From the NCBI GenBank assembly GCA_963677765.1, contig OY782392.1, forward strand, positions 390,001 through 422,000: a DNA stretch of 32,000 nucleotides, given 5' to 3'. Origin of the DNA: Candidatus Saccharimonadota bacterium (GTDB lineage: Bacteria > Patescibacteriota > Gracilibacteria > BD1-5 > UBA6164). Positions within the stretch are counted from its first letter, which is position 1; each line of letters begins with the position of its first letter. Both the position numbers and the translations under genes were made by a program. Positions 13,526-27,472 of this stretch are shown piece after piece. The notes under the pieces are model-generated. The model searched no databases, had not been told where the DNA came from, and saw only the letters and a program-made list of their open reading frames with translations.

Positions 13526-16111
13526 ATGATAGAAAGTATTATTAAATCAATTTTTTGAGATCCAAGTGAAAAAAAAGTTAAAGAAATAACTAAACTAGTG
13601 GAACAAATCAAAGAATATGAAAAAAATCAAGAAAATTATTCAATAGAAGATATAAAAAATAAAACTCAAGAATTCAAAGCAAAATTTGAATGACTAGATT
13701 TTAAAAATCCTGAAGATTCAAAAACTATAAAAAAAATAATTGATGAAATAAAATTAGAAGCTTTTGCTTTAGTAAAAACTGCATGTAAAAATATTTCTTG
13801 AAAAGAGTTTGAATTAAAAAGTGGTAAAAAAATAACATGGAATATGGTTCCTTATGATGTTCAATTAATAGGTTGATTAGCTATAAATGATTGAAACATA
13901 AGTGAAATGAAGACTTGAGAATGAAAAACTTTAGTTGCTACTCTTCCAGCTTATTTAAATGCACTAACATGAAACCCTGTTCATATTGTAACAGTAAATG
14001 ATTACTTAGCAGAAAGAGATTCAGAAGAAATGTCTATATTATATGAAACTCTTTGACTAAAAACATGAGTTATTTTAAATTCTCAATCAAAAAGTATCAA
14101 AAAAGAACAATATCTATGTGATATTGTTTATGCTACTAATAATGAACTAGGTTTTGATTACCTTAGAGATAATATGGTAATATCAAAAGATGATAAAGTA
14201 CAATCAAGATTATTTTTTGCTATTATAGATGAAGTTGATTCTATATTAATTGATGAAGCAAGAACTCCATTAATAATATCAATGCCTGATAACGAACCAA
14301 CTAGCAAATATATGAAATTTGCAGCATTAATTAAAAACTTACAAAACTGAATTCATTATAAAATTGATGAAAAACAAAAAACTGCTACTTTGACTGAAGA
14401 TGGTATTAAGAAAGTAGAAGAAATATTAAGAGTTGATAATATATATGTTTCTGAACATTACAATGATATACACCATATAGAAAATGCATTGAAAGCTATG
14501 GCAGTATACAAAAAAGAAAAAGACTATTTAGTTATAAATTGAGAAGTTCAAATAATCGATGAACACACAGGTAGAGTTTTAGCTGGTAGAAGATATTCTG
14601 AATGACTTCACCAAGCTATTGAAGCAAAAGAATGAGTTGAAATAAAACAAGAATCAAAAACACTTGCAAGTATAACATTTCAAAATTTCTTTAGAATGTA
14701 TTGGAAATTATCATGAATGACTGGTACAGCATCAACTGAAGCAGAAGAATTTTATAAAGTATATAACTTAGATACTCTTATTATCCCTACAAATAAACCT
14801 ATAGCAAGAGAAGATAGATCTGATTTACTTTTCAAAAATGAAAGATGAAAATTTGATTATGTAGTATCAATGATAAAAGAACTACATAAATCAGGTCAAC
14901 CTATACTTGTATGAACAGTTTCTGTAGAAAAATCTGAATATTTAAGTGATAGATTAAAAAAAGAATGAATAAGTCATAGTGTTTTAAATGCAAAACATCA
15001 TGAACAAGAAGCTGAAATAGTATCTAAAGCTGGTCAAAAATGAGCAATAACTATAGCTACAAATATGGCTTGAAGAGGTACTGATATAAAATTATGAGAA
15101 TGAGTTAGAGAATTATGAGGTTTAATAATTCTTGGTACAGAAAAACATGAAACTAGAAGAATAGATAATCAATTAAGATGAAGAGCCTGAAGACAATGAG
15201 ATCCTTGAATAACTCAATTTTTAATATCACCAAATGATGATATAATGAGAATTTTTGGTTGAGATAAATTATTTGGAGTATTTAACTCTCCAATGTTTGC
15301 ATCTCTTCCTGAGAATGAACCTTTATCTCAAAGCTCTATGCTAACTAGAAAAGTTACAAGTGTTCAAAAACAAGTTGAATGACATAACTTTGATATGAGA
15401 AAACATATACTAGAATATGATGATGTCATAAATAAACACAGAAATATTATATACACAAGAAGAGATAAAATTCTAGACAGCCAAGATATTCATGAAGATA
15501 TCAAAAAAATGATTGAATCTCAAATAAAAATATTAGTAAATGCTGAATTTACTAAATCCCATAATGAAAATGAAGAAGAAATAAACAACTGAAATAAAGA
15601 TTTAATAAAAAGAGTTAACAGCTTTTTATGAATTGAAGCTATTGATGATAGAATAGAATTAGATGATATTTCATCTATGAATAATCCAGAAGAAATTTCT
15701 GAATATATATCAAGAATAGCTATCGATGAAATTGAAAAAGTAAAAGAAAGAGCTAACTCTCAAGATGATTATGCTAGATTAGAAAGAAGAATTGTTCTTA
15801 GTTCTATAGATGAATTATGGATGAGACATATAGATGCTATGAGTAAATTAAGAGAATCTGTAGCATTTGAGTGATATGCTCAAAAAAATCCATTAATTGT
15901 TTACAAAGAAAAAGCTTATTTTAAATTTCAAGATTTAATCAATGAAATTGAATATAAAGTAGTAAAAGCTATATTTAGTATTTGACAAACACCAAAAGAA
16001 GTTGAAGTAAATCAAGTTGATTTATCTAAAAAAGATTTGGAAACAAATTCAAATGATAATCCCCTATTTGATAAAAACTCTAATGCAAAAGTTAATAAAA
16101 TTAGAGTATAA
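13526..16111 (+). CDS. secA: Preprotein translocase ATPase SecA (861 aa)
   Basis: 862 codons. [20 protein letters not shown] start (Gly = TGA). Motor motifs [37 protein letters not shown] and TIATNMAGRGTDIKLG. Both + strand ORF-track fragments at 15395 and 15677 are in this frame. Confidence 0.97.
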
Positions 16112-16112
16112 A

Positions 16113-16150
16113 AATAAGTCTATTCCTATTAGAGAATAGACTTATTTTTT
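16113..16150 (+). terminator. Rho-independent terminator of secA
   Basis: 13-bp stem: aataagtctattc (16113-16125) pairs with gaatagacttatt (16134-16146), followed by a T-run to 16150. Confidence 0.7.
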
Positions 16151-16221
16151 GTCAATAGATTATTATAGTAAAATAAAAAATAATATGCTATTATTATTTA
16201 AATATTTATTAATAAAAAATT

Positions 16222-19047
16222 ATGATATTTGATCCTTCAAAACTAAACTTAAATGTTGAAGAAGATAATGAAAATAACTGATTAAATCAGGAATTTAAAA
16301 ATGAAAAAAAAGAAGAAACTAAAATAGAAAAACCTGAAATAAAAAAAGAAGTTGAAACTCAAAATGATGTTTTAGCTGATTTAAATATTGAAAAAAATGA
16401 AAACAATGAAAATCAAATTACAGAAAAAGAAGATGTAAATGCTTTTAATGATATAAAATTGGAAAATAAAGAAAAAACTGAAGAAACTCAAAAAGAAGAA
16501 AAAGAAGTGGAAGAAAATAATGTAGAAAAAGAAAGTGAAGAAAAAAAAGTAATTTATGATATAAACATAAATTCAATTAAAGATGTTTTAACATTATTAA
16601 TAGATAAATGATATGATTTTGTTACTTTTGAACCAGATGAAACAAGTGTAAAAATAAACTTTAGAAAAGATAAAGTAATAGTTGATACTAGATATATAAA
16701 ATACCCTATATATTCTAATATATTGATAAAAACAAAAAGTTTATCAAAATTAAAGGTAGAAGAAACACAAAAAGAACAAGAATGAGTATGAGAAGCAAAT
16801 ATTAGAAATAAATGATACGATGTATTAACAAAAGTTGTACCTTGAGCTTTTTGAGAAAAAATGTTCATAAAAGCAAAAGAAAAAAAGAAAAAAGTAGCAA
16901 AAAAAGAAACAAAAAAAATGAGCTTATCACAAATAATGACTTTTTTATGAGCTTTAGCATTTATATGACTTATTGTTTGAGGTTCTTTTATATGATTTAT
17001 AGCTATGAATGCAAAAACAGTTGAAGATGTTAAGTTTTTTGCTTCATTATGAATAAATTTAAATGAAATTAATAATTTTATATCGTCTTCGATAACAATT
17101 ATTTTTTCTACATTAGTATTCTTTGAAACAGCTGTTTTAATTATGTTACTTTTTAAATTCGCTCTTACAAAAAAAGAATTTAAACAAAAGAAAATAAAGT
17201 ATTGAATACTTTCTACTGTTGTTTTAATAATGACATTTTCTACAGCATCAGCTTGGATGATAATAGATAGAAAAGTAAATTCATTACCAAATTGGCAAGA
17301 AATGGCATTATGAGAAATTCAAATTTTTGATAATGCAAAACTAATAAGTGAGCAATTTGATAAAGTATGATCAATAGTACAAGATACTTCTAATTTGATT
17401 TGACCAGTAGAGTTAAAATTTGATTTATGATTTTTTCAAGATTCACAAGAAGCAAAATGATATAAGATAAATAAATATATATGGGATTTTTGATGAGATG
17501 ATATAGTTGAAACTCCTCTATCAAATATAATAAAAAGATTTGATAAAAAATGAATAAATGAAGTTACTTTAACAGTTATGCAAGAAGATATACAAGGTAA
17601 TATAATTGAAAAAGTAATAGAAGATATTCCAAGTATAAACATATCTTATTTAGTTGATATGAATGAAAGAGACCTATGAAATTGAAGTAAACAAGTTACT
17701 CTTAATGCATCTAGCTTAAGTGAATTATGAAATATAGAATGGTACTTAATGGATAATTTAGAAAAACCTGTATCTGAATCTGAAACATATATAACAAGAC
17801 CAATTTTTGAAGAAACATTAATAGGAATGTATATAAGAAACTCTGATAAAGAATCTGAATTATTAGATAAAATATTCATAATAAAATCAATAGAAAAATG
17901 AGAAATAGAAGCAGAAATTGATTTTCAAAGATGAATAGTAAATGATATGGAATATACATTTAAGATATCTAATATAGAAAGCTGAGAATGAAGAGGTTTT
18001 ATTGAAACATTTGAATGGAAAATATGAGATAAAGAATATACTAGAAAATGAGATGTAACTAATCAAGAAAAATCTAGTGAAATAAAACATATTTTTGAAA
18101 ATTATTGAGACTATACAATATCTGTAAAACTAACAAATACTTTTTGAGATATAAAAACTCTTACAAAAGAAATAAATATACCTAAAAAATTAAAAATAAC
18201 TAAGTGAATTGATATATTTGCAGATGATATAATAATAGAATCTGTTGACTACAAACAAAACTTAAATGAATATATGTTAAATAATATAGGTATACCAAAT
18301 TCAATGAAGTTTGATGCTAGATTTATAGAAATTGATTCTGATTTATATACTTTAAAAACAGTTAATTGGGATTATGACTCTGATTGAGATAATGACTTTA
18401 GCTGAAGAGTATGAGAATATAGCTTAAATTCTGAATGAAACCATACAATAACACTTAATGCTATTTTTGAACATAGAAAAATTGATGGTGAAATAATAGA
18501 AGTAGAGCAAAAAATATATATTGAAGCTGTTCAAAAAGAAGCAATTTTAGACTTTTTAATAAGCAAAAATAGTGAGTATGTTCCTGTGGTTGTATGATTT
18601 GATGCTTCCAGAGCAAAAGTAAAAGATTCTAATATTGCAAAATTTATATGGGATTATGGTGATGGTGAAACAGAAGAAAGAGATGCTATTGTACCATGAC
18701 ACATATATACAAAAGCTTGAGAATATGAAGTAAAACTTACAATATTAACAAGTGATTGAAAAAGATATTCAACAACAAAAAACCTTATATTAAAACCTAA
18801 AGCTCAAACAATAAGTATAAAAGCAAGTATGAAAAATGCTCCAGTATACCAATGAATTGACTTTAGTTCTGAATGATCTGATTGACAAATATCATCTTAC
18901 TTTTGGGATTTTGGCGATGGTGAAACTTCAACAAAAGCCAACCCAACACATGCATATAAAAAAGCATGAGATTACAAAGTAAAATTAAGATTAGATTTTG
19001 TTAATAGAAATGTTTTAAGAGAAGAAATAGATATTAGTATATACTAA
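16222..19047 (+). CDS. Large membrane protein: acidic/Lys-rich N-terminus, PilB/GspE-type N-domain without ATPase, TM helices, about 5 PKD-like repeats (941 aa)
   Basis: 942 codons. Residues around 125-230 read ..LIDKGYDFVTFEPDETSVKINFRKDKVIVDTRY..ILIKTKSLSKLKVEETQKEQEGVGEANIRNKGYDVLTKVVPGAFGEKMFIKA, the pattern that precedes Walker A in PilB/GspE (..DIHxEP..xRxRxDG..SRxKxxAxLxIxExRxPQDGR..RVSxxPxxxGEKxVxR). No Walker A follows. Hydrophobic segments follow instead (LGALAFIGLIVGGSFIGFIAM, ITIIFSTLVFFETAVLIMLLF, ILSTVVLIMTFSTASAWMII). The C-terminal part has PKD signatures WDFGGDD.., WDYGDGETEERDAIVPGHIYTKAGEYEVKL and WDFGDGETSTKANPTHAYKKAGDYKVKL. Confidence 0.8.
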
Positions 19048-19077
19048 AAAAAACAGCAATTTTCATTGCTGTTTTTT
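19046..19077. terminator. Bidirectional terminator shared by convergent genes
   Basis: aaacagcaat (19051-19060) pairs with attgctgttt (19065-19074), with an A-run on the left and a T-run on the right. It overlaps the stop codons of both flanking genes. Confidence 0.65.
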
Positions 19078-19774
19078 AGTATTTTATTTCTAATGACTTT
19101 ATATTTCATGAAAAACCAATATCTTCTAAATTAAATTTTAATACTTTAGCAATAGTTAATGCTAGAATTTTTTCTTGCTTAATAGAATCTGATAAAAATT
19201 CTATATTTTTATCATTAAAATTTTTGATATAAATTCATGCTATAGATCATCTATTTATTCACTTAAACATTGCTTTATTTTGTCATGATTCTCTAACAGG
19301 AGGAACAAAAAAGATTTCTTTTTTCATAGCTTTATAATCACTTCACCTCCATATAAGATTTTCTATATTAACAGAAACTGTAACCAGAGCTTCTTTAAAA
19401 TCAGGGATAAAACAATTAACATCTTCTCTTAGATAACCTAATTCTTTATAATAATTTTCCAATATATCTAACTCTTCTTTTAGAGTAATTCAAACAATAT
19501 GAATTTTTTTATTATTAGAAATAGAATAATCAAATAAAGATTGGAAAATCTCAAGCTCATCCTTTGGTGAATAAACTTCACTATACATTGCAAATTTTCA
19601 ATTTAAATTGCTTAATAGTTCAGTATTCTCTTTTTCTTTTAAAAGTTCTGAAATATAAAAAACTTCAATATTATCTGATGAGTAATTACAATCTAAATAA
19701 TCAAATAAAAATTTATTATCAAATTTATCTGTTGCTTCTATGTTTAATATTTTATCTCTATAAACTTTCTTCAT
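19076..19774 (-). CDS. Hypothetical protein (232 aa)
   Basis: 233 codons from ATG 19774 to TAA 19078-19076. The start overlaps the end of the upstream rnhB-queH ORF by 17 nt in another frame. No family assigned. Confidence 0.6.
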
Positions 19775-21017
19775 TATTTTTTTCTTTTAATTTATCTAAA
19801 AATTGTTGTTTTCAACCTGGATATGTATCACTATATATACACCCACAATAATTTTGTCTATAAATATTATGTTTTTTAGTATATTCAACACTTCTTTCAA
19901 AACCTTTATTTTTTCTAAAAGCTATTTTAAAAAAATCTAGTTTTTCTTTTAAGGATTCTCATGATTTTTCATCAAAAGTTTCTTGTATAGACCATTTATC
20001 TCATAGAGAAAACATTTTTTCTAAATCTTTATGAGGTGAAGTATTTAGAGTAGAAGTCCAGTATTTGATACCTAATCTTCTAGCTTCTAAAGCACTTCTT
20101 TTAAGTCTCATGTCATAACATTTAGTACATTTTTCTCATTTTTCAGGAGTAGCTTCTAGTCACTTAATTTCATTAAAAAAATTATGAACATCATATTCTC
20201 ATTCTATATATTCAACTCATTCAATTTCACAAACTTTTATAAGTTCTCCTAATCTTTTATCATGCTCTTTTTTTGGTTGAATATTTGGGTCATACCAAAA
20301 ACATATTACTTCATATTCCTTTTTTAAATCCATAATAGGTACAGTTGCATCAGGTCAACAACATATGTGAAGTAATAACTTTGGTTTCTTATTTAATACT
20401 TCTTTTACTGGTTTATAGCTAAGTCTATGAATACTAGTGACTTTTGATTTATCACTTAAATATTCTTTATGTTTTTTAGTACCATATCATTTATGATTTT
20501 CTATAGATAAATCAGGATATAAAAGACTATATTGAGACATCAATTTATCTCTAAATACTTTAGCAATTATAGATGCTGCTCATATTTCCATTATTTTTCA
20601 GTCTCAACCTATTATAAAAATGGGATCTCTTTCTAGCTCTTCAAATTTATAATTATCATTTCAATCTATAAGCACTGAAGCTATATCTTCATTTGGTATT
20701 TTTCTTAAAAGTTCCACAAGACTTCTTCTCATAGCTTCCCTATTTGCTTTTTTGATATTTATTTCATCAATTAAATGATTATCAACAACTCAAACTCAAA
20801 AAAATAATTTTGGATTATCTCATCTTGAATATTCTATTAACTCTTTAAATAATTTTTCTCTTTTAATTTCTGTTAACTTTTTAGAGTCATTCAATCTAGA
20901 CAAAAAATCCTTGTCTGGCATGTTATTTGGATTAAAACAAAGACTACAGGCAACTACACTTCAAAGCCATGGTCATCTTCAAGCCTCATCTATTCATATT
21001 TTATACTTAAGTGGCAT
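19758..21017 (-). CDS. Fusion protein: RNase HII (N-terminal) + DUF208/QueH epoxyqueuosine reductase (C-terminal), 419 aa
   Basis: 420 uninterrupted codons. The N-half has IGIDEAGRGPWLGSVVA, DSKKLT, VLIDGN, GGDGKIMEIGAASIIAKVFRD and NHKGYGTKKH..HRLSYKP (RnhB). Without a stop it continues KKPKLLLHICCGPDATVPI..FWYDPNIQP..CTKCYDMRL..YWTSTLNTSPHK..QNYCGCIYS (QueH). Confidence 0.88.
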
Positions 21018-21109
21018 ATTATTTTTCATTTTGAAAGATATTTTTATTTTTAAAATATACAATTTCAAATATAATAACGACAACTTAAAAATAAACAATA
21101 AAAATTATA

Positions 21110-24177: not shown

Positions 24178-24798
24178 TTATTTTTTGATAACTAAAGGAT
24201 TAGCATCATTTCAATTGGCTACACATGTATTAGATGCTCAAGCAGGAGTAACACAAGAAAAAGCATTAATTGTTGAAGGTATTCCATTTGCAATTGATAC
24301 TTCTGTAGTTTTAACATGAGATCATTGACTATCATCTAAATCTAATCAGATTTCTAATCTATAATCATCATCTCATCCATCAGTTTCAGCTCTATTTGTA
24401 ATATTACCATCATTTTCAAAATGAGTAGAAATTTCATATTCTTGTAAAGGAATAGTATTTCTATCTGGACTTACGTTATATAGATAATCAAAAACTGAAT
24501 TTTCACTAGCATTAGTAGTTCTAGGATCTTCTGGTACTCATGATTGTAAGTAAACACCTATTCATGTAGTTGTATCACCAAAAGATGTACTTTTTGTAGG
24601 ATAATTAGTTGTATCTTGATAAAATTGTTCTATTGCATTTCTAAGTGCATTTAAGTCAGAAATTCTAGTAGAGTCTCTTGCTTTTTGTAACTGAGTTGTA
24701 AATACATTAACTGCACCAGTAGCAAGTATACCCATTATAGTTATTACTACTAGTAACTCTATAAGAGTAAATGCTGATTTTCTTTTTTGTAATTTCAT
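24178..24798 (-). CDS. Type IV pilin-like protein with prepilin-type N-terminal cleavage/methylation domain (206 aa)
   Basis: 207 codons. MKLQKRKSA-FTLIELLVVITIMGILATGAV class III signal peptide. The ORF-track 78-aa fragment continues through TGA codons to TAA 24180-24178. C-terminal Cys pair CVTPAGASNTC. Confidence 0.9.
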
Positions 24799-25964: not shown

Positions 25965-26381
25965 ATGCAATATAAAATACCTGTACAAATAGAAAATGAA
26001 GATCCTATATTGTTATGACTTAGTGGTAGGCAACTTGCAATAATAATGATATGAGGTTGAATATGATATTCTATATTTCAATCATTAGCTCCAGTTTTAT
26101 GAAATACTGTAGCACTATTCCCTGCTTGAATAATTTTAGCTATAGCAGTATGAATAGCTGTAATAAAAGTTTATGAAATGACTTTTTTAAGGCTAGTTTT
26201 AGCTTTTATAAGATACAAAGTAAACTTAGACACTAGAAAATGGACAAAATGAGTAGATAGTTTTTCTGCAATGGATATTTGATTTATTAGTTATAATGAA
26301 AATAAAGCAGAACAAAAAATAGATACTAAATCTAAAATAGATAAAATAAAAGATTTAGAAGAAAACTTAAATAAAATTTAA
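25965..26381 (+). CDS. PrgI/VirB3-like small membrane protein (138 aa)
   Basis: 139 codons. MQYKIPVQIENEDPILLGLSGRQLAIIMIGGGIGYSIF.. matches the PrgI-family N-terminal pattern (xxVPxxIxxEDKIxxGLTxRQL, then two TM helices). Confidence 0.65.
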
Positions 26382-26399
26382 AATATAAATTAAAAAAAG

Positions 26400-27107
26400 G
26401 TGGCTGTAAAAACAAATAAAAAAGATCATCCTGATAGTTCAACTCAAAGATATTTGCCTTTTTCATGAATAAAAGAAAATATCATGATAATGAAGGATAA
26501 TAGTGCTAGATTAGTAATGAAATGTTCAACAATAAATTTTTTATTAAAAAATACTGATGAGCAAGATGCTATAATAATGAGTTTTCAGAGGTTTTTAAAT
26601 TCTTTAGACTTTCCTATTCAAATAATAGTAAGATCAAAAAAATTAGATATTGATAGTTATTTATCAAGATTAAATGATAAAGCTTTGAATCAAACAAATC
26701 CTTTGTTACAAAATCAAACTTATGAATATATTGAATACTTAAGAAAACTAATTGAAGTTGCTCAAATAATGAAAAAAGAATTTTATGTTGTTATACCATT
26801 TGATATGGAAGCAAATAAAAGTGTAAAAGATGATACTTTTCTATGAGTATTTCAAAGTTTTTGGAAATCAATAAACCAATGACAAGATATTTCTAATATA
26901 AAAACTCAATTAAGAAATTTTTCAAAACTAAAAAAAGGATTAAACTGAAGAGCTAATTGAGTCAAAACAAGTCTTGAAAATATATGAATAAAAGCTGAAG
27001 CTTTGACAAAACAAGAATTAGTAAAATTTTTGACAGATTACTATAATCCAAAACTTGATTCTTTGGAAACTATTTGAGATATAGAAAATTATAATATAAC
27101 AAAATAA
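26400..27107 (+). CDS. VirB4/TraC-like N-terminal domain protein without ATPase domain (235 aa)
   Basis: 236 codons. GTG start (frame opens after TAA 26391-26393; aaagg precedes it). TQRYLPFSGIKENIMIMKDNSARLVMKCSTINFLLKNTDEQDAIIMSFQRFLNSLDFPIQIIVRSKKLDIDSYL resembles the N-terminus of Gram-positive/CPR VirB4-type conjugation ATPases. It ends at TAA 27105-27107 with no Walker A. Confidence 0.55.
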
Positions 27108-27109
27108 TA

Positions 27110-27472
27110 ATGAAAAAATATTTTTTTTATGCACTAGCATTTATTTCTAGTTTTAATTATTCATATGCAAATAATCCTAATACATGACTATTATGATGAT
27201 CATGAATTTCTAGTGATGATATAAGAAACTGAAATATTCACACGGAACATATTCCATGAATAATAAAATGAATTATAGACTTTTGAATATGAATAGCATG
27301 AACGGTTGCAGTTATATTTATTATAATTTGAGCATATCAAGTACTTCTATGATCATTAGAACAAGACAAATCTAAATGAAAAAATACTATTTTTATGGCA
27401 ATTATGTGATTTATAATAGCAAGTTTAGCTTGGTTTATTATAAGATTAATAATAGATAATTTTTGAGGATAA
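27110..27472 (+). CDS. T4SS pilin-like (TrbC/VirB2-type) small membrane protein (120 aa)
   Basis: 121 codons. Signal peptide MKKYFFYALAFISSFNYSYA. Then IPGIIKGIIDFGIGIAGTVAVIFIIIGAYQVLLGS..KSKGKNTIFMAIMGFIIASLAWFIIRLI: two TM helices separated by a short basic loop. Confidence 0.6.

What the first reader, a model, noticed from the sequence alone, without database searches (positions are those of the whole stretch)
16222..19047. Secretion-ATPase N-domain without an ATPase, fused to a membrane anchor and extracellular PKD repeats, next to secA
Directly downstream of secA is a 941-aa ORF with three parts.
- Its cytoplasmic part reproduces the sequence pattern of the N-terminal subdomain that precedes Walker A in PilB/GspE/PilT-class hexameric ATPases: GYDFVTFEPDETSVKINFRKDKVIV..KTKSLSKLKVEETQKEQEGVGEANIRNKGYDVLTKVVPGAFGEKMFIKA.
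- The chain then goes into a Lys-rich linker and three or more TM helices, where the nucleotide-binding domain would normally follow.
- It ends in about five PKD-like Ig repeats outside the cell (WDFGDGET..H.Y...G.Y.V.L).

This architecture would couple a pilus- or secretion-motor interaction surface to a surface adhesin-like array. That is plausible for an episymbiotic or predatory cell that uses type IV pili to attach to hosts. I do not know of a characterised protein with this layout.
Basis: partly seen in the sequence, partly recalled or inferred. Interest (0 to 1): 0.7.

Follow-up and report, generated by a model that had tools for sequence, protein, structure and literature searches.

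The report
Pilus-motor domain on a membrane-anchored surface protein
A conserved surface protein of Gracilibacteria carries inside the cell a domain copied from the type IV pilus/type II secretion motor but lacks the motor's ATPase engine; this layout has not been described and may link a cell-surface adhesion array to the pilus machinery.

Summary
Under genetic code 25 (TGA=Gly), window 16222-19047(+) encodes a 941-aa protein directly downstream of secA.

Anatomy, N- to C-terminus:
- A disordered acidic tail.
- A true N2 subdomain of PilB/GspE-type ATPases. HMM, profile and whole-library searches all hit it. An AlphaFold model of a homologue has pLDDT ~97, and its top 26 PDB matches are all PilB/PilF/GspE/BfpD (1.6-2.5 A over ~100 residues).
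- No Walker A and no ATPase core.
- A Lys-rich linker and three TM helices, oriented N-in/C-out.
- About six extracellular Ig/PKD domains.

The family is full length in 38 Gracilibacteria genomes and is named only "PKD domain-containing protein", or wrongly "ATPase".

New findings:
- A sister family in related lineages, with recoded and standard code, has the same 3-TM module and ectodomain but no N2 domain. N2 was therefore captured by an older surface-protein family.
- secA lies upstream in 25 of 35 informative loci, but a terminator-like hairpin separates the genes. This is synteny, not a shown operon.
- Large pilin-like genes are directly adjacent in several other loci.

The function is inferred, not shown. 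I think the orphan N2 domain most likely docks the surface array to the pilus platform (PilC) or motor. It is a new domain architecture built from known parts.

The parts
16222..19047 (+). Whole gene (941 aa under code 25, TAA stop): orphan-N2 / 3-TM / PKD-array protein
   Evidence: code 25; full-length orthologues of 850-980 aa in 38 Gracilibacteria loci.
16222..16548 (+). Residues 1-109: disordered acidic, Asn-rich cytoplasmic tail. It carries short conserved motifs: FDPSKL at residues 3-8 and NDVLADL at 48-54.
   Evidence: Mean column conservation 0.24. pLDDT below 50 in homologue models. FDPSKL is present in 20 of 34 orthologues. The [DE][DI][IV]LxxL motif is present in 16 of 34, against a mean of 1.8 in shuffles.
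16549..16887 (+). Residues ~110-222: N2 subdomain homologous to that of PilB/GspE-type ATPases (alpha-beta3-alpha-beta3). Degenerate: the Arg of the 'QDGR' motif is lost.
   Evidence: Sequence and profile hits. Structure. Colinear alignment with canonical PilB up to the Walker A position.
16888..16917 (+). Residues 223-232: Lys-rich linker, at the place where the linker and Walker A of a real ATPase would follow
   Evidence: 10 K/R against 2 D/E in residues 215-240, and no [AG]xxxxGK[ST] motif in the protein. for the alignment.
16918..17271 (+). Residues 233-350: three-helix membrane module. TM1 is 233-264, TM2 287-317 and TM3 329-350. It includes the outward loop NAKTVEDVKFFxSLGINLNEIN (265-286), the most conserved stretch of the protein, and a K-rich inward loop (318-328).
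   Evidence: Hydropathy and positive-inside rule. Three long helices in the AF2 models. Conservation 0.85 for loop 1. The module is shared with the N2-less sister family.
17272..17466 (+). Residues 351-415: conserved juxtamembrane extracellular segment (LPNWQE...NLIGPxxxKFDL)
   Evidence: Conservation 0.65. Mixed alpha/beta in the model. Also conserved in N2-less relatives.
17467..19044 (+). Residues 416-941: extracellular chain of about six Ig-like beta-sandwich domains. Four to five of them are recognisable as PKD.
   Evidence: Pfam PKD_4 2.6e-41 and PKD 3.7e-31. Motifs at residues 421, 599, 716, 810 and 895. All-beta model with pLDDT 80-93. Foldseek matches to Ig/PKD chains: GhpA, cytokine-receptor ectodomains, S-layer PKD proteins and adhesins.
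13526..16111 (+). secA, the conserved upstream neighbour (context)
   Evidence: Pfam SecA_DEAD, P-loop_SecA, SecA_PP_bind and SecA_SW. It lies upstream on the same strand in 25 of 35 informative orthologous loci.
16112..16152 (+). Terminator-like hairpin and T-run directly after the secA stop, followed by a GTCAAT promoter-like motif
   Evidence: RNAfold dG -14.9 kcal/mol. An analogous hairpin plus T-run, with different sequence, follows secA in most orthologous loci.
19048..19077 (+). Terminator-like hairpin directly after the gene's stop codon, shared with the convergent gene at 19076-19774(-)
   Evidence: 13-bp stem followed by a T-run.

Best explanation
SHOWN.
- The gene encodes a conserved membrane protein of BD1-5-type Gracilibacteria, oriented N-in/C-out.
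- Inside the cell it has a disordered acidic tail with short conserved motifs, then a degenerate but well-folded N2 subdomain homologous to that of PilB/GspE-type extension and secretion ATPases. The RecA-like ATPase core is missing.
- A Lys-rich linker leads into a highly conserved 3-TM module.
- Outside the cell it has about six Ig/PKD domains.
- Related lineages carry the same 3-TM module and ectodomain without N2. The N2 domain was therefore captured from a pilus/secretion ATPase gene and inserted into an older surface-protein family.

INFERRED.
- In real motors the N2 domain makes two protein contacts. It packs against the CTD of the neighbouring subunit, and in the PulE6:PulF3 model it contacts the cytoplasmic domains of the platform protein GspF/PilC through helix alpha2 and the alpha2-beta4 loop.
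- I therefore propose that the orphan, membrane-tethered N2 domain acts as a docking module. It would attach this surface Ig/PKD array to the type IV pilus platform (PilC) or to a PilB/PilT hexamer.
- The adhesive or spacer array would then sit at the pilus base, and it could modulate motor engagement.
- It cannot hydrolyse ATP itself.
For: N2 homology:
- HMM and profile hits fall only on the N2 region of GspE/PilB/PilF.
- canonical ATPases hit the family profile at E 1e-12 to 1e-17 among 1.84 billion proteins.
- 30.5% identity over 95 aa to a CPR PilB.
- pLDDT ~97, and the top 26 PDB fold matches are all PilB/PilF/GspE/BfpD, with rmsd 1.6 A over 101 columns to EpsE.

No ATPase.

Topology.

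Conservation and purifying selection.

N2 is an add-on. The N2-less protein gives no T2SSE hit.

The N2 surface that contacts the platform in the PulE:PulF model (alpha2, alpha2-beta4 loop; PMC10790770) corresponds to some of the best-conserved family positions, 'YSNILxKxK...QEGxG'.

Pilus-related neighbours:
- Large type IV pilin-like genes (N_methyl plus NHL) are divergently adjacent in L024, L029 and L030, and another in L010.
- A 622-aa pilin-like gene and the prepilin peptidase flank an N2-less relative in L042.
- A pilin gene lies 5 kb downstream in the window's synteny block.

Literature: Gracilibacteria are reported to encode and express type IV pili (PMC11452946).
Against: - No physical or genetic evidence links this protein to any pilus component.
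- pilB, pilC and pilM are not adjacent in any of the 38 loci. Only L026 has a PilT-like gene within 10 kb.
- Pilin-like genes are common in these genomes, about 1 per 29 kb in the loci, so some adjacency is expected by chance.
- The conserved N2 motifs could be kept for folding alone.
- The N2-less relatives show that the family's core job does not need N2. Their conserved partners are a solute-binding protein and a giant protein with a T4SS-pilin-like domain and PKD repeats, not type IV pilus genes.
- The structure was predicted for homologues at 50-60% identity, not for the window protein itself.
Confidence: 0.4

Rival explanations
1. Surface adhesin or envelope scaffold with no link to the pilus. 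In this view the N2 domain is an exapted fold used only for self-association, as a spacer, or to bind some unrelated cytoplasmic partner. The protein's function lies in the conserved 3-TM module and the extracellular Ig/PKD array.
For: - N2-less relatives keep the same TM module and ectodomain, and they sit in a conserved operon with a solute-binding protein and a giant protein carrying a T4SS_pilin domain and PKD repeats.
- The most conserved part of the protein is the outward loop of the TM module, not N2.
- No pilus assembly genes are adjacent.
- N2-only proteins exist elsewhere, for example the cyanobacterial P0198 with two N2 domains and no Walker A. The fold can therefore live without its ATPase.
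Against: - The N2 domain has been kept, well folded, across orthologues down to about 41% identity. It retains motifs inherited from the ATPases: EP, FRKD, QEG, GEK and helix alpha2.
- Its only known roles are contacts within pilus and secretion machines.
- Large pilin-like genes are directly adjacent in several independent contexts.
Confidence: 0.35
2. Sec-associated factor. The conserved position directly downstream of secA would reflect a functional partnership, for example a membrane tether or accessory for SecA-dependent export of large surface proteins.
For: secA is the upstream neighbour on the same strand in 25 of 35 informative loci. These include loci where all other neighbours differ: L006, L009, L012, L021, L022, L031-L034, L037 and L038.
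Against: - A terminator-like hairpin plus T-run follows secA in the window and in most loci, followed by a promoter-like motif. The genes therefore look like separate transcription units.
- Ten loci lack secA upstream although the protein keeps its N2 domain.
- N2-less relatives are not next to secA.
- No known SecA-binding domain or motif is detected.
- The N2 fold has no known relation to the Sec system.
Confidence: 0.08
3. Artefact: a truncated or pseudogenised pilB fused to a PKD gene by misassembly, or an ORF created by choosing the wrong genetic code.
For: Under table 11 the frame is broken 45 times.
Against: - Code 25 is independently supported.
- The same full-length architecture occurs in 38 genomes, including three complete chromosomes, and in about 60 database proteins.
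- Conservation runs throughout the protein.
- Structure models are confident.
Confidence: 0.01

Closest known systems
N2 subdomain (N2D/NTD) of PilB/PilF/GspE(EpsE)/BfpD hexameric ATPases (N-terminal ~120 positions of Pfam T2SSE PF00437)
   Same: Same fold (alpha-beta3-alpha-beta3) and colinear motifs. Here YDFVTFEP, FRKD, QEG and VPGxFGEK correspond to SDIHIEP, RxDG, QDGR and PGxYGE. Top structural matches have 1.6-2.5 A rmsd over about 100 residues. It is closer to the extension/secretion clade than to PilT or DotB.
   Different: No CTD follows: no Walker A or B, Asp box or His box. The Arg of QDGR is lost. There is a 4-residue deletion in the SDIH segment. The domain is tethered to the membrane by a Lys-rich linker and three TM helices instead of being part of a soluble hexamer.
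GspL, and PilM-PilN or BfpC-type assembly-platform proteins (cytoplasmic domain + TM + periplasmic domain that tether the ATPase to the membrane)
   Same: The overall logic is the same: a cytoplasmic protein-interaction domain, a membrane anchor and an extracytoplasmic domain. PilN also uses a short conserved N-terminal cytoplasmic peptide. This comparison is from general knowledge and is an analogy only.
   Different: There is no sequence or HMM similarity. The cytoplasmic domain here is an N2 fold, not actin-like. There are three TM helices rather than one. The ectodomain is a long Ig/PKD chain.
N2-less 3-TM/PKD sister family in related recoded and standard-code lineages (e.g. P0137, P0081, L048, L051)
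   Same: Same 3-TM module with the FNxxxAxFFxxxGIN loop, the same juxtamembrane segment and ectodomain order, and an N-terminal acidic tail with an 'SLLDEIL'-type motif.
   Different: It lacks the N2 domain (about 760-800 aa). It sits in a conserved operon after a solute-binding protein and a giant 1750-1900-aa protein with a T4SS_pilin domain and PKD repeats. It is not next to secA.
Ig/PKD-chain surface proteins (Aureispira GhpA grappling hook, archaeal S-layer PKD proteins, MpIBP-type adhesins)
   Same: The ectodomain is a beads-on-a-string chain of beta-sandwich domains. These proteins are the best Foldseek matches for it.
   Different: The similarity is only at the generic fold level (10-15% identity, low TM-scores). 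Those proteins lack the N-terminal 3-TM anchor and any N2 domain.
P0198 (Dapis sp., cyanobacterium), named 'ATPase, T2SS/T4P/T4SS family'
   Same: It is another protein with N2 domains (two in tandem) and no Walker A or ATPase core.
   Different: It appears soluble, with no TM module or PKD domains, comes from an unrelated lineage, and is uncharacterised.

Membership tests
T2SSE / PilB-GspE-PilT secretion ATPases (PF00437; TIGR02538, TIGR02533) | N2 subdomain preceding the nucleotide-binding core | tested here: met
T2SSE / PilB-GspE-PilT secretion ATPases | Walker A P-loop (GPTGSGKT/S) | tested here: not met
   No [AG]xxxxGK[ST] motif anywhere. In the alignment the chain enters a Lys-rich linker and TM1 where TGPTGSGKT lies in PilB.
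T2SSE / PilB-GspE-PilT secretion ATPases | RecA-like CTD with Walker B, Asp box and His box; full-length HMM score above the curated cut-off | tested here: not met
   HMM matches stop at profile position 123 of 370. Scores are about 30 bits, against equivalog cut-offs of 617-850. The protein is therefore not a member. The NCBI name 'ATPase, T2SS/T4P/T4SS family' for homologue P0064 is a mis-annotation.
T2SSE / PilB-GspE-PilT secretion ATPases | Hexamer formation and ATP hydrolysis | not testable with these tools
   Needs biochemistry. Hydrolysis is excluded in principle because the core is absent.
PKD domain proteins (PF00801 / PF18911) | HMM score above the gathering threshold; WDFGDG...GxY motif | tested here: met
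   PKD_4 140 bits (cut-off 27) and PKD 107 bits (cut-off 23.5), four stretches each. Five motif copies.
T2SSE_N / MshEN (GSPII N1) domain | HMM match to PF05157 in the N-terminal region | tested here: not met
   No hit at E<=1. Residues 1-109 are disordered.
TatC (PF00902 / TIGR00945) | Six-TM TatC fold; score above the cut-off | tested here: not met
   19.3 bits against cut-offs of 25.1 and 132.7. Only three TM helices. The family profile finds no TatC among PDB sequences even at E<=10, and there is no TatC fold match.
CPR Pam pilus system (PamR, NF058578) | Equivalog-level match; pam operon context; Saccharimonadia/Microgenomatia distribution | tested here: not met
   17.6 bits against a cut-off of 300, on a PKD repeat only. 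The Pam system is a donor-strand-exchange pilus of other CPR classes.
Type IV pilins / pseudopilins | N-terminal class III signal (N_methyl, GFTLxE) | tested here: not met
   No N_methyl hit. The N-terminus is acidic and disordered.

The most novel reading that the evidence does not exclude
The orphan N2 domain is a trans-acting subunit or regulator of the type IV pilus machine. It would occupy the N2-binding sites on the PilC platform, or on the CTD of PilB/PilT. Contact of the extracellular Ig/PKD array with a host cell would be transmitted through the conserved 3-TM module to switch pilus extension or retraction. That would be an outside-in sensor built from a piece of the motor itself, invented in Gracilibacteria by inserting N2 into an older surface protein.
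Probability: 0.15. Interest if true: 0.85.

Novelty: new variant of a known kind. Interest (0 to 1): 0.55.

Why it matters
Type IV pili are central to how CPR/Patescibacteria attach to and feed on hosts, but the accessory parts of their pilus machines are largely unknown.

- **New component class.** A motor-derived N2 domain without the ATPase, tethered to the membrane and joined to an extracellular Ig/PKD array, would be a new kind of pilus-associated protein. It would also be a natural "separated" N2 domain for testing what N2 binds (platform or neighbouring CTD), which is an open question for PilB/GspE motors.
- **Evolution.** It is a clean case of domain capture, since N2-less and N2-bearing sister families both exist.
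- **Annotation.** It corrects a database mis-annotation ("ATPase, T2SS/T4P/T4SS family").
- **Possible cell biology.** It could help explain how recoded, uncultured Gracilibacteria organise their surface.

Tried and rejected
1. **Folding the window protein itself.** I folded database homologues instead: P0007 (50% identity) and P0023 (60% identity).
2. **TatC resemblance of the TM module.** The hits are weak (E~1e-3). I rejected it because the scores are below cut-off, there are only three TM helices, and no TatC appears in the profile-versus-PDB search or the fold search.
3. **PamR / CPR Pam pilus.** The 17.6-bit hit falls on a PKD repeat, and Pam is an unrelated system of other CPR classes.
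4. **secA-target operon.** A terminator-like hairpin and T-run lie between the genes in the window and in most loci. The consensus terminator scan missed this hairpin.
5. **Adjacent pilB/pilC/pilM.** BLAST with a CPR PilB found only the family's own N2 domains and one PilT-like gene, in L026.
6. **Literature.** Searches on Gracilibacteria, PKD, type IV pili and N2 domain found no description of this protein.
7. **First homology search.** It returned only fragments, because many database entries are translated with code 11 or code 4 (W in place of G). The profile search recovered about 60 full-length proteins.
8. **Lineage of the N2-less group.** It could not be named. Source names read only 'bacterium' or 'uncultured bacterium (gcode 4)'.
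Full report
**1. The observation**

Translated with the standard bacterial code, window 16222-19047(+) is broken by 45 TGA codons and ends at a single TAA.

The recoding has independent support. Of the 38 TGA positions that align to a relative from a standard-code organism (P0137), 15 face Gly (background 6.5%) and none faces Trp. TGG codons face Trp in 5 of 7 cases. Several TGA codons fall on the invariant Gly of the PKD 'GxY' motif.

secA lies at 13526-16111 with all four SecA domains, 110 nt upstream on the same strand.

**2. The cytoplasmic domain is a real N2 subdomain of PilB/GspE-type ATPases**

Sequence evidence:
- Pfam T2SSE (PF00437) matches residues 117-230 to profile positions 10-123 of 370. 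E is 9.5e-5 for the whole protein and 6.6e-6 (25.5 bits, cut-off 24.9) for the isolated domain.
- NCBIfam PilB (6e-8), GspE (1e-7), TfpB and ComGA all match the same segment, always the part before Walker A.
- A family profile searched against all PDB sequences finds only GspE/EpsE, PilB and PilF, in register on their N2 regions. The best E is 2.9e-6, and the next unrelated hits have E>0.08.
- An exhaustive HMMER scan of 1.84 billion representative proteins with the N2+TM profile finds canonical PilB/GspE ATPases. The ones I inspected are tandem-duplicated, which explains their two matched stretches. They score E 1e-12 to 1e-17.
- A plain BLASTP of one CPR PilB against the window protein gives 30.5% identity over 95 residues, all upstream of Walker A.

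Structural evidence:
- AlphaFold2 on homologue P0007 (50% identical to the window protein; 63-sequence alignment) gives pLDDT ~97 for this domain. The order of elements is alpha-beta-beta-beta-alpha-beta-beta-beta.
- In Foldseek against the PDB, the top 26 hits (E 1e-8 to 2e-4) are all PilB, PilF, GspE/EpsE or BfpD. EpsE 1p9w aligns over 101 columns at 1.6 A rmsd. PilT and DotB come later, at E~3e-3.

The multiple alignment is colinear with PilB:

| PilB/GspE motif | This protein |
|---|---|
| SDIHIEP | YDFVTFEP |
| RYRLDG | NFRKDK |
| PQDGRF | EQEGVG |
| IPGxYGESIVMR | VPGAFGEKMFIK |

In PilB, TGPTGSGKT follows about 25 residues after the last motif. Here the chain enters a Lys-rich linker and TM1 instead. 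No Walker A exists anywhere in the protein, and the Arg of QDGR is lost.

**3. Topology and ectodomain**

Three hydrophobic segments lie at 233-264, 287-317 and 329-350. Charge counts:

| Segment | K/R | D/E | Side |
|---|---|---|---|
| Before TM1 | 10 | 2 | in |
| TM1-TM2 loop | 1 | 3 | out |
| TM2-TM3 loop | 5 | 1 | in |
| After TM3 | 1 | 5 | out |

This gives N-in/C-out. Both AF2 models show three long helices.

Pfam finds four PKD stretches (PKD_4 2.6e-41), and five WD[FY]G-type motifs are present. The full-length model of P0023 (60% identical in the N2+TM region; mean pLDDT 81) shows an all-beta chain of about six Ig-like domains after a short juxtamembrane segment. Its best PDB matches are generic Ig/PKD chains: the GhpA grappling hook of Aureispira, cytokine-receptor ectodomains, S-layer PKD proteins and adhesins.

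The weak TatC hits on the TM module are below cut-off and are not reproduced by profile or fold searches. I reject them.

**4. Distribution and conservation**

- Thirty-eight loci were found in the species-level genome collection. All are Gracilibacteria or MAGs labelled Peribacteria, and three are complete chromosomes. Under code 25, the ORF is 850-980 aa in the loci that contain the whole gene; a few are cut by contig ends or split.
- About 60 full-length database proteins exist. They are named 'PKD domain-containing protein' or, once, 'ATPase, T2SS/T4P/T4SS family'. That second name is a mis-annotation, because the ATPase core is absent. Many entries are mistranslated, with W in place of G, or fragmented.
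- Mean column conservation by region:

| Region | Conservation |
|---|---|
| Acidic tail | 0.24 |
| N2 domain | 0.57 |
| TM helices | 0.66-0.68 |
| Outward loop NAKTVEDVKFFxSLGINLNDIN | 0.85 (highest) |
| Ig/PKD domains | 0.53-0.70 |

- The tail carries short motifs. FDPSKL is at the extreme N-terminus in 20 of 34 orthologues. A [DE][DI][IV]LxxL motif is present in 16 of 34, against a mean of 1.8 in shuffles.

**5. An N2-less sister family**

The exhaustive search also recovered proteins of about 700-800 aa that match only the TM-module part of the profile, close to their N-terminus. Their sequences show:
- the same 3-TM module (FLAYIVFNPxxAxFFxxFGINPxDI);
- the same juxtamembrane segment (NLIGPITLRFDL) and the same ectodomain order;
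- a short acidic tail with an 'S(L/F)LDEIL' motif that runs directly into the PKKK linker, with no N2 domain;
- no T2SSE hit in Pfam.

They occur both in recoded organisms (L042, L044, L046-L050) and in standard-code organisms (L041, L051-L057).

Their neighbourhood is conserved but different from the window's. A solute-binding protein (SBP_bac_1/8, ~455-470 aa) comes first. A giant 1750-1900-aa protein follows, with a signal peptide, a T4SS_pilin/TrbC-like membrane hairpin and many PKD repeats. The N2-less protein comes last, and all three are on one strand.

The simplest reading is that an older 3-TM/PKD surface-protein family acquired an N2 domain from a pilus/secretion ATPase gene in the BD1-5 Gracilibacteria lineage. 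This is an inference, because no rooted phylogeny was made.

**6. Neighbourhood of the N2 form**

- secA is the upstream same-strand neighbour in 25 of 35 informative loci, including loci where every other neighbour differs.
- In the window, a 13-bp-stem hairpin with a T-run (dG -14.9 kcal/mol) follows the secA stop directly, and a GTCAAT promoter-like motif follows it. An analogous hairpin plus T-run, with different sequence, is present in most loci.
- The gene ends in its own terminator-like hairpin. It therefore looks like a separate transcription unit, and the secA link is conserved synteny rather than a demonstrated operon.
- Among the ten loci without secA upstream, L024, L029 and L030 have a divergently adjacent ~580-aa protein with a type IV pilin N-terminus (N_methyl) and NHL repeats. 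L010 has a 357-aa pilin-like gene.
- An N2-less relative (L042) is followed by a 622-aa pilin-like gene and lies near the prepilin peptidase.
- The window's synteny block has a pilin gene 5 kb downstream (24178-24798-).
- Pilin-like genes occur about once per 29 kb in these loci, so this is suggestive, not conclusive. No pilB, pilC or pilM is adjacent, and only L026 has a PilT-like gene within 10 kb.

**7. How it most likely works**

Established knowledge gives N2 two contacts. In these motors the N2 domain and the CTD of the neighbouring chain form a rigid unit (PMC6145873). In the AlphaFold-Multimer model of PulE6:PulF3, N2 helix alpha2 and the alpha2-beta4 loop bind the cytoplasmic domains of the platform protein GspF/PilC (PMC10790770).

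In this family the corresponding stretch (YSNILxKxK ... QEGxG) is among the best-conserved parts of the domain. That may also reflect folding constraints.

My best explanation (about 0.4) is that the membrane-tethered orphan N2 domain docks the protein to the pilus platform or motor. This would place the extracellular Ig/PKD array at the pilus base and might modulate motor engagement.

The main rival (about 0.35) is that N2 is an exapted fold with no pilus role and the protein is simply a surface adhesin or envelope scaffold. The N2-less relatives and their different operon support that view. A Sec-related role (about 0.08) has only the synteny in its favour. An artefact is excluded.

**8. Comparison with what is known, and novelty**

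The protein is not a member of the T2SSE ATPase family, because Walker A and the CTD were tested and are absent. It contains one homologous subdomain of that family. It is a bona fide PKD-domain protein.

Pfam and NCBIfam have no model for the 3-TM module or for the architecture as a whole. The full-text searches found no description of it.

One other N2-only protein was seen: cyanobacterial P0198, with two N2 domains. Orphan N2 domains are therefore not unique, but the membrane-anchored N2 + 3-TM + PKD layout appears undescribed.

I class it as a new variant (a new domain architecture) of known kinds. Interest is moderate to high for pilus and CPR specialists. The score is limited by the absence of any direct functional evidence.

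Noticed in passing
whole window (1-32000): The window uses genetic code 25 (TGA=Gly) and has 23% G+C. Table-11 tools fragment every gene. Under code 25, long antisense 'shadow' ORFs appear inside real genes, for example 16554-17645(-), 363 aa, inside the target.
   Followed up: yes
window 19758-21029 (-): One ORF fuses RNase HII (residues 11-207) with the epoxyqueuosine reductase QueH (218-401). The fusion is conserved in the synteny block of related loci.
   Followed up: partly
window 25965-27472 (+), perhaps extending to about 30273: A PrgI-family protein (25965-26381) and a T4SS_pilin protein (27110-27472) mark a type IV secretion cluster of the monoderm type reported for Patescibacteria. 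It is followed by two unannotatable proteins, one of them a 590-aa Asn/Glu-rich protein.
   Followed up: partly
window 24178-24798 (-): A type IV pilin gene (N_methyl motif, 'SAFTLIELLVV'). It is conserved about 5-7 kb downstream of the target in the same synteny block: L001, L002, L004, L005, L016, L017, L020 and L023.
   Followed up: partly
window 19076-19774 (-): A 232-aa protein convergent with the target and sharing its terminator hairpin. It is conserved next to the target in about 15 loci and has no Pfam hit.
   Followed up: no
L024 7848-9596(-), L029 7887-9632(-), L030 7913-9649(-): Modular pilin-like proteins of about 580 aa (class III signal plus NHL/beta-propeller repeats), transcribed divergently from the target orthologue, 170-200 bp away. 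They are candidate pilus-tip adhesins.
   Followed up: partly
L048 1821-12130(+); L051 2428-12133(+); also L042, L046, L050, L052-L057: A conserved three-gene arrangement in the sister lineages. It consists of a solute-binding protein, then a giant 1750-1900-aa protein (signal peptide, T4SS_pilin/TrbC-like hairpin, PKD array, acidic C-terminus with repeated 'PDWLK'), then the N2-less 3-TM/PKD protein.
   Followed up: partly
proteins P0152, P0197, P0199, P0210 (about 995-1018 aa): Tandem-duplicated PilB/GspE ATPases: two complete N2+CTD units with two Walker A motifs in one chain. They were found among the hits of the exhaustive search.
   Followed up: no
protein P0198 (Dapis sp. BLCC M172, 459 aa): A cyanobacterial protein with two tandem N2 domains and no Walker A, named 'ATPase, T2SS/T4P/T4SS family'. 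It is a second kind of N2-only protein.
   Followed up: no
window 16222-16548 and orthologues; N-termini of N2-less relatives: Short conserved cytoplasmic motifs sit in an otherwise unconserved acidic tail. These are FDPSKLxL at the extreme N-terminus, [DE][DI][IV]LxxL further in, and S(L/F)LDEIL in the N2-less family. The binding partner is unknown. The arrangement recalls the N-terminal PilM-binding peptide of PilN, but only by analogy.
   Followed up: partly
window 16148-16155 and the same position in L001, L004, L007, L017, L021, L023, L036: A recurring (T)GTCAA(T/A) motif lies just after the post-secA hairpin, about 60-70 nt upstream of the target start. It may be the -35 element of the gene's own promoter.
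   Followed up: no
L017 6804-8387 and 8452-9681: In this MAG the orthologue is split into two ORFs (527 and 409 aa). This is either a frameshift or sequencing error, or a real disruption.
   Followed up: no
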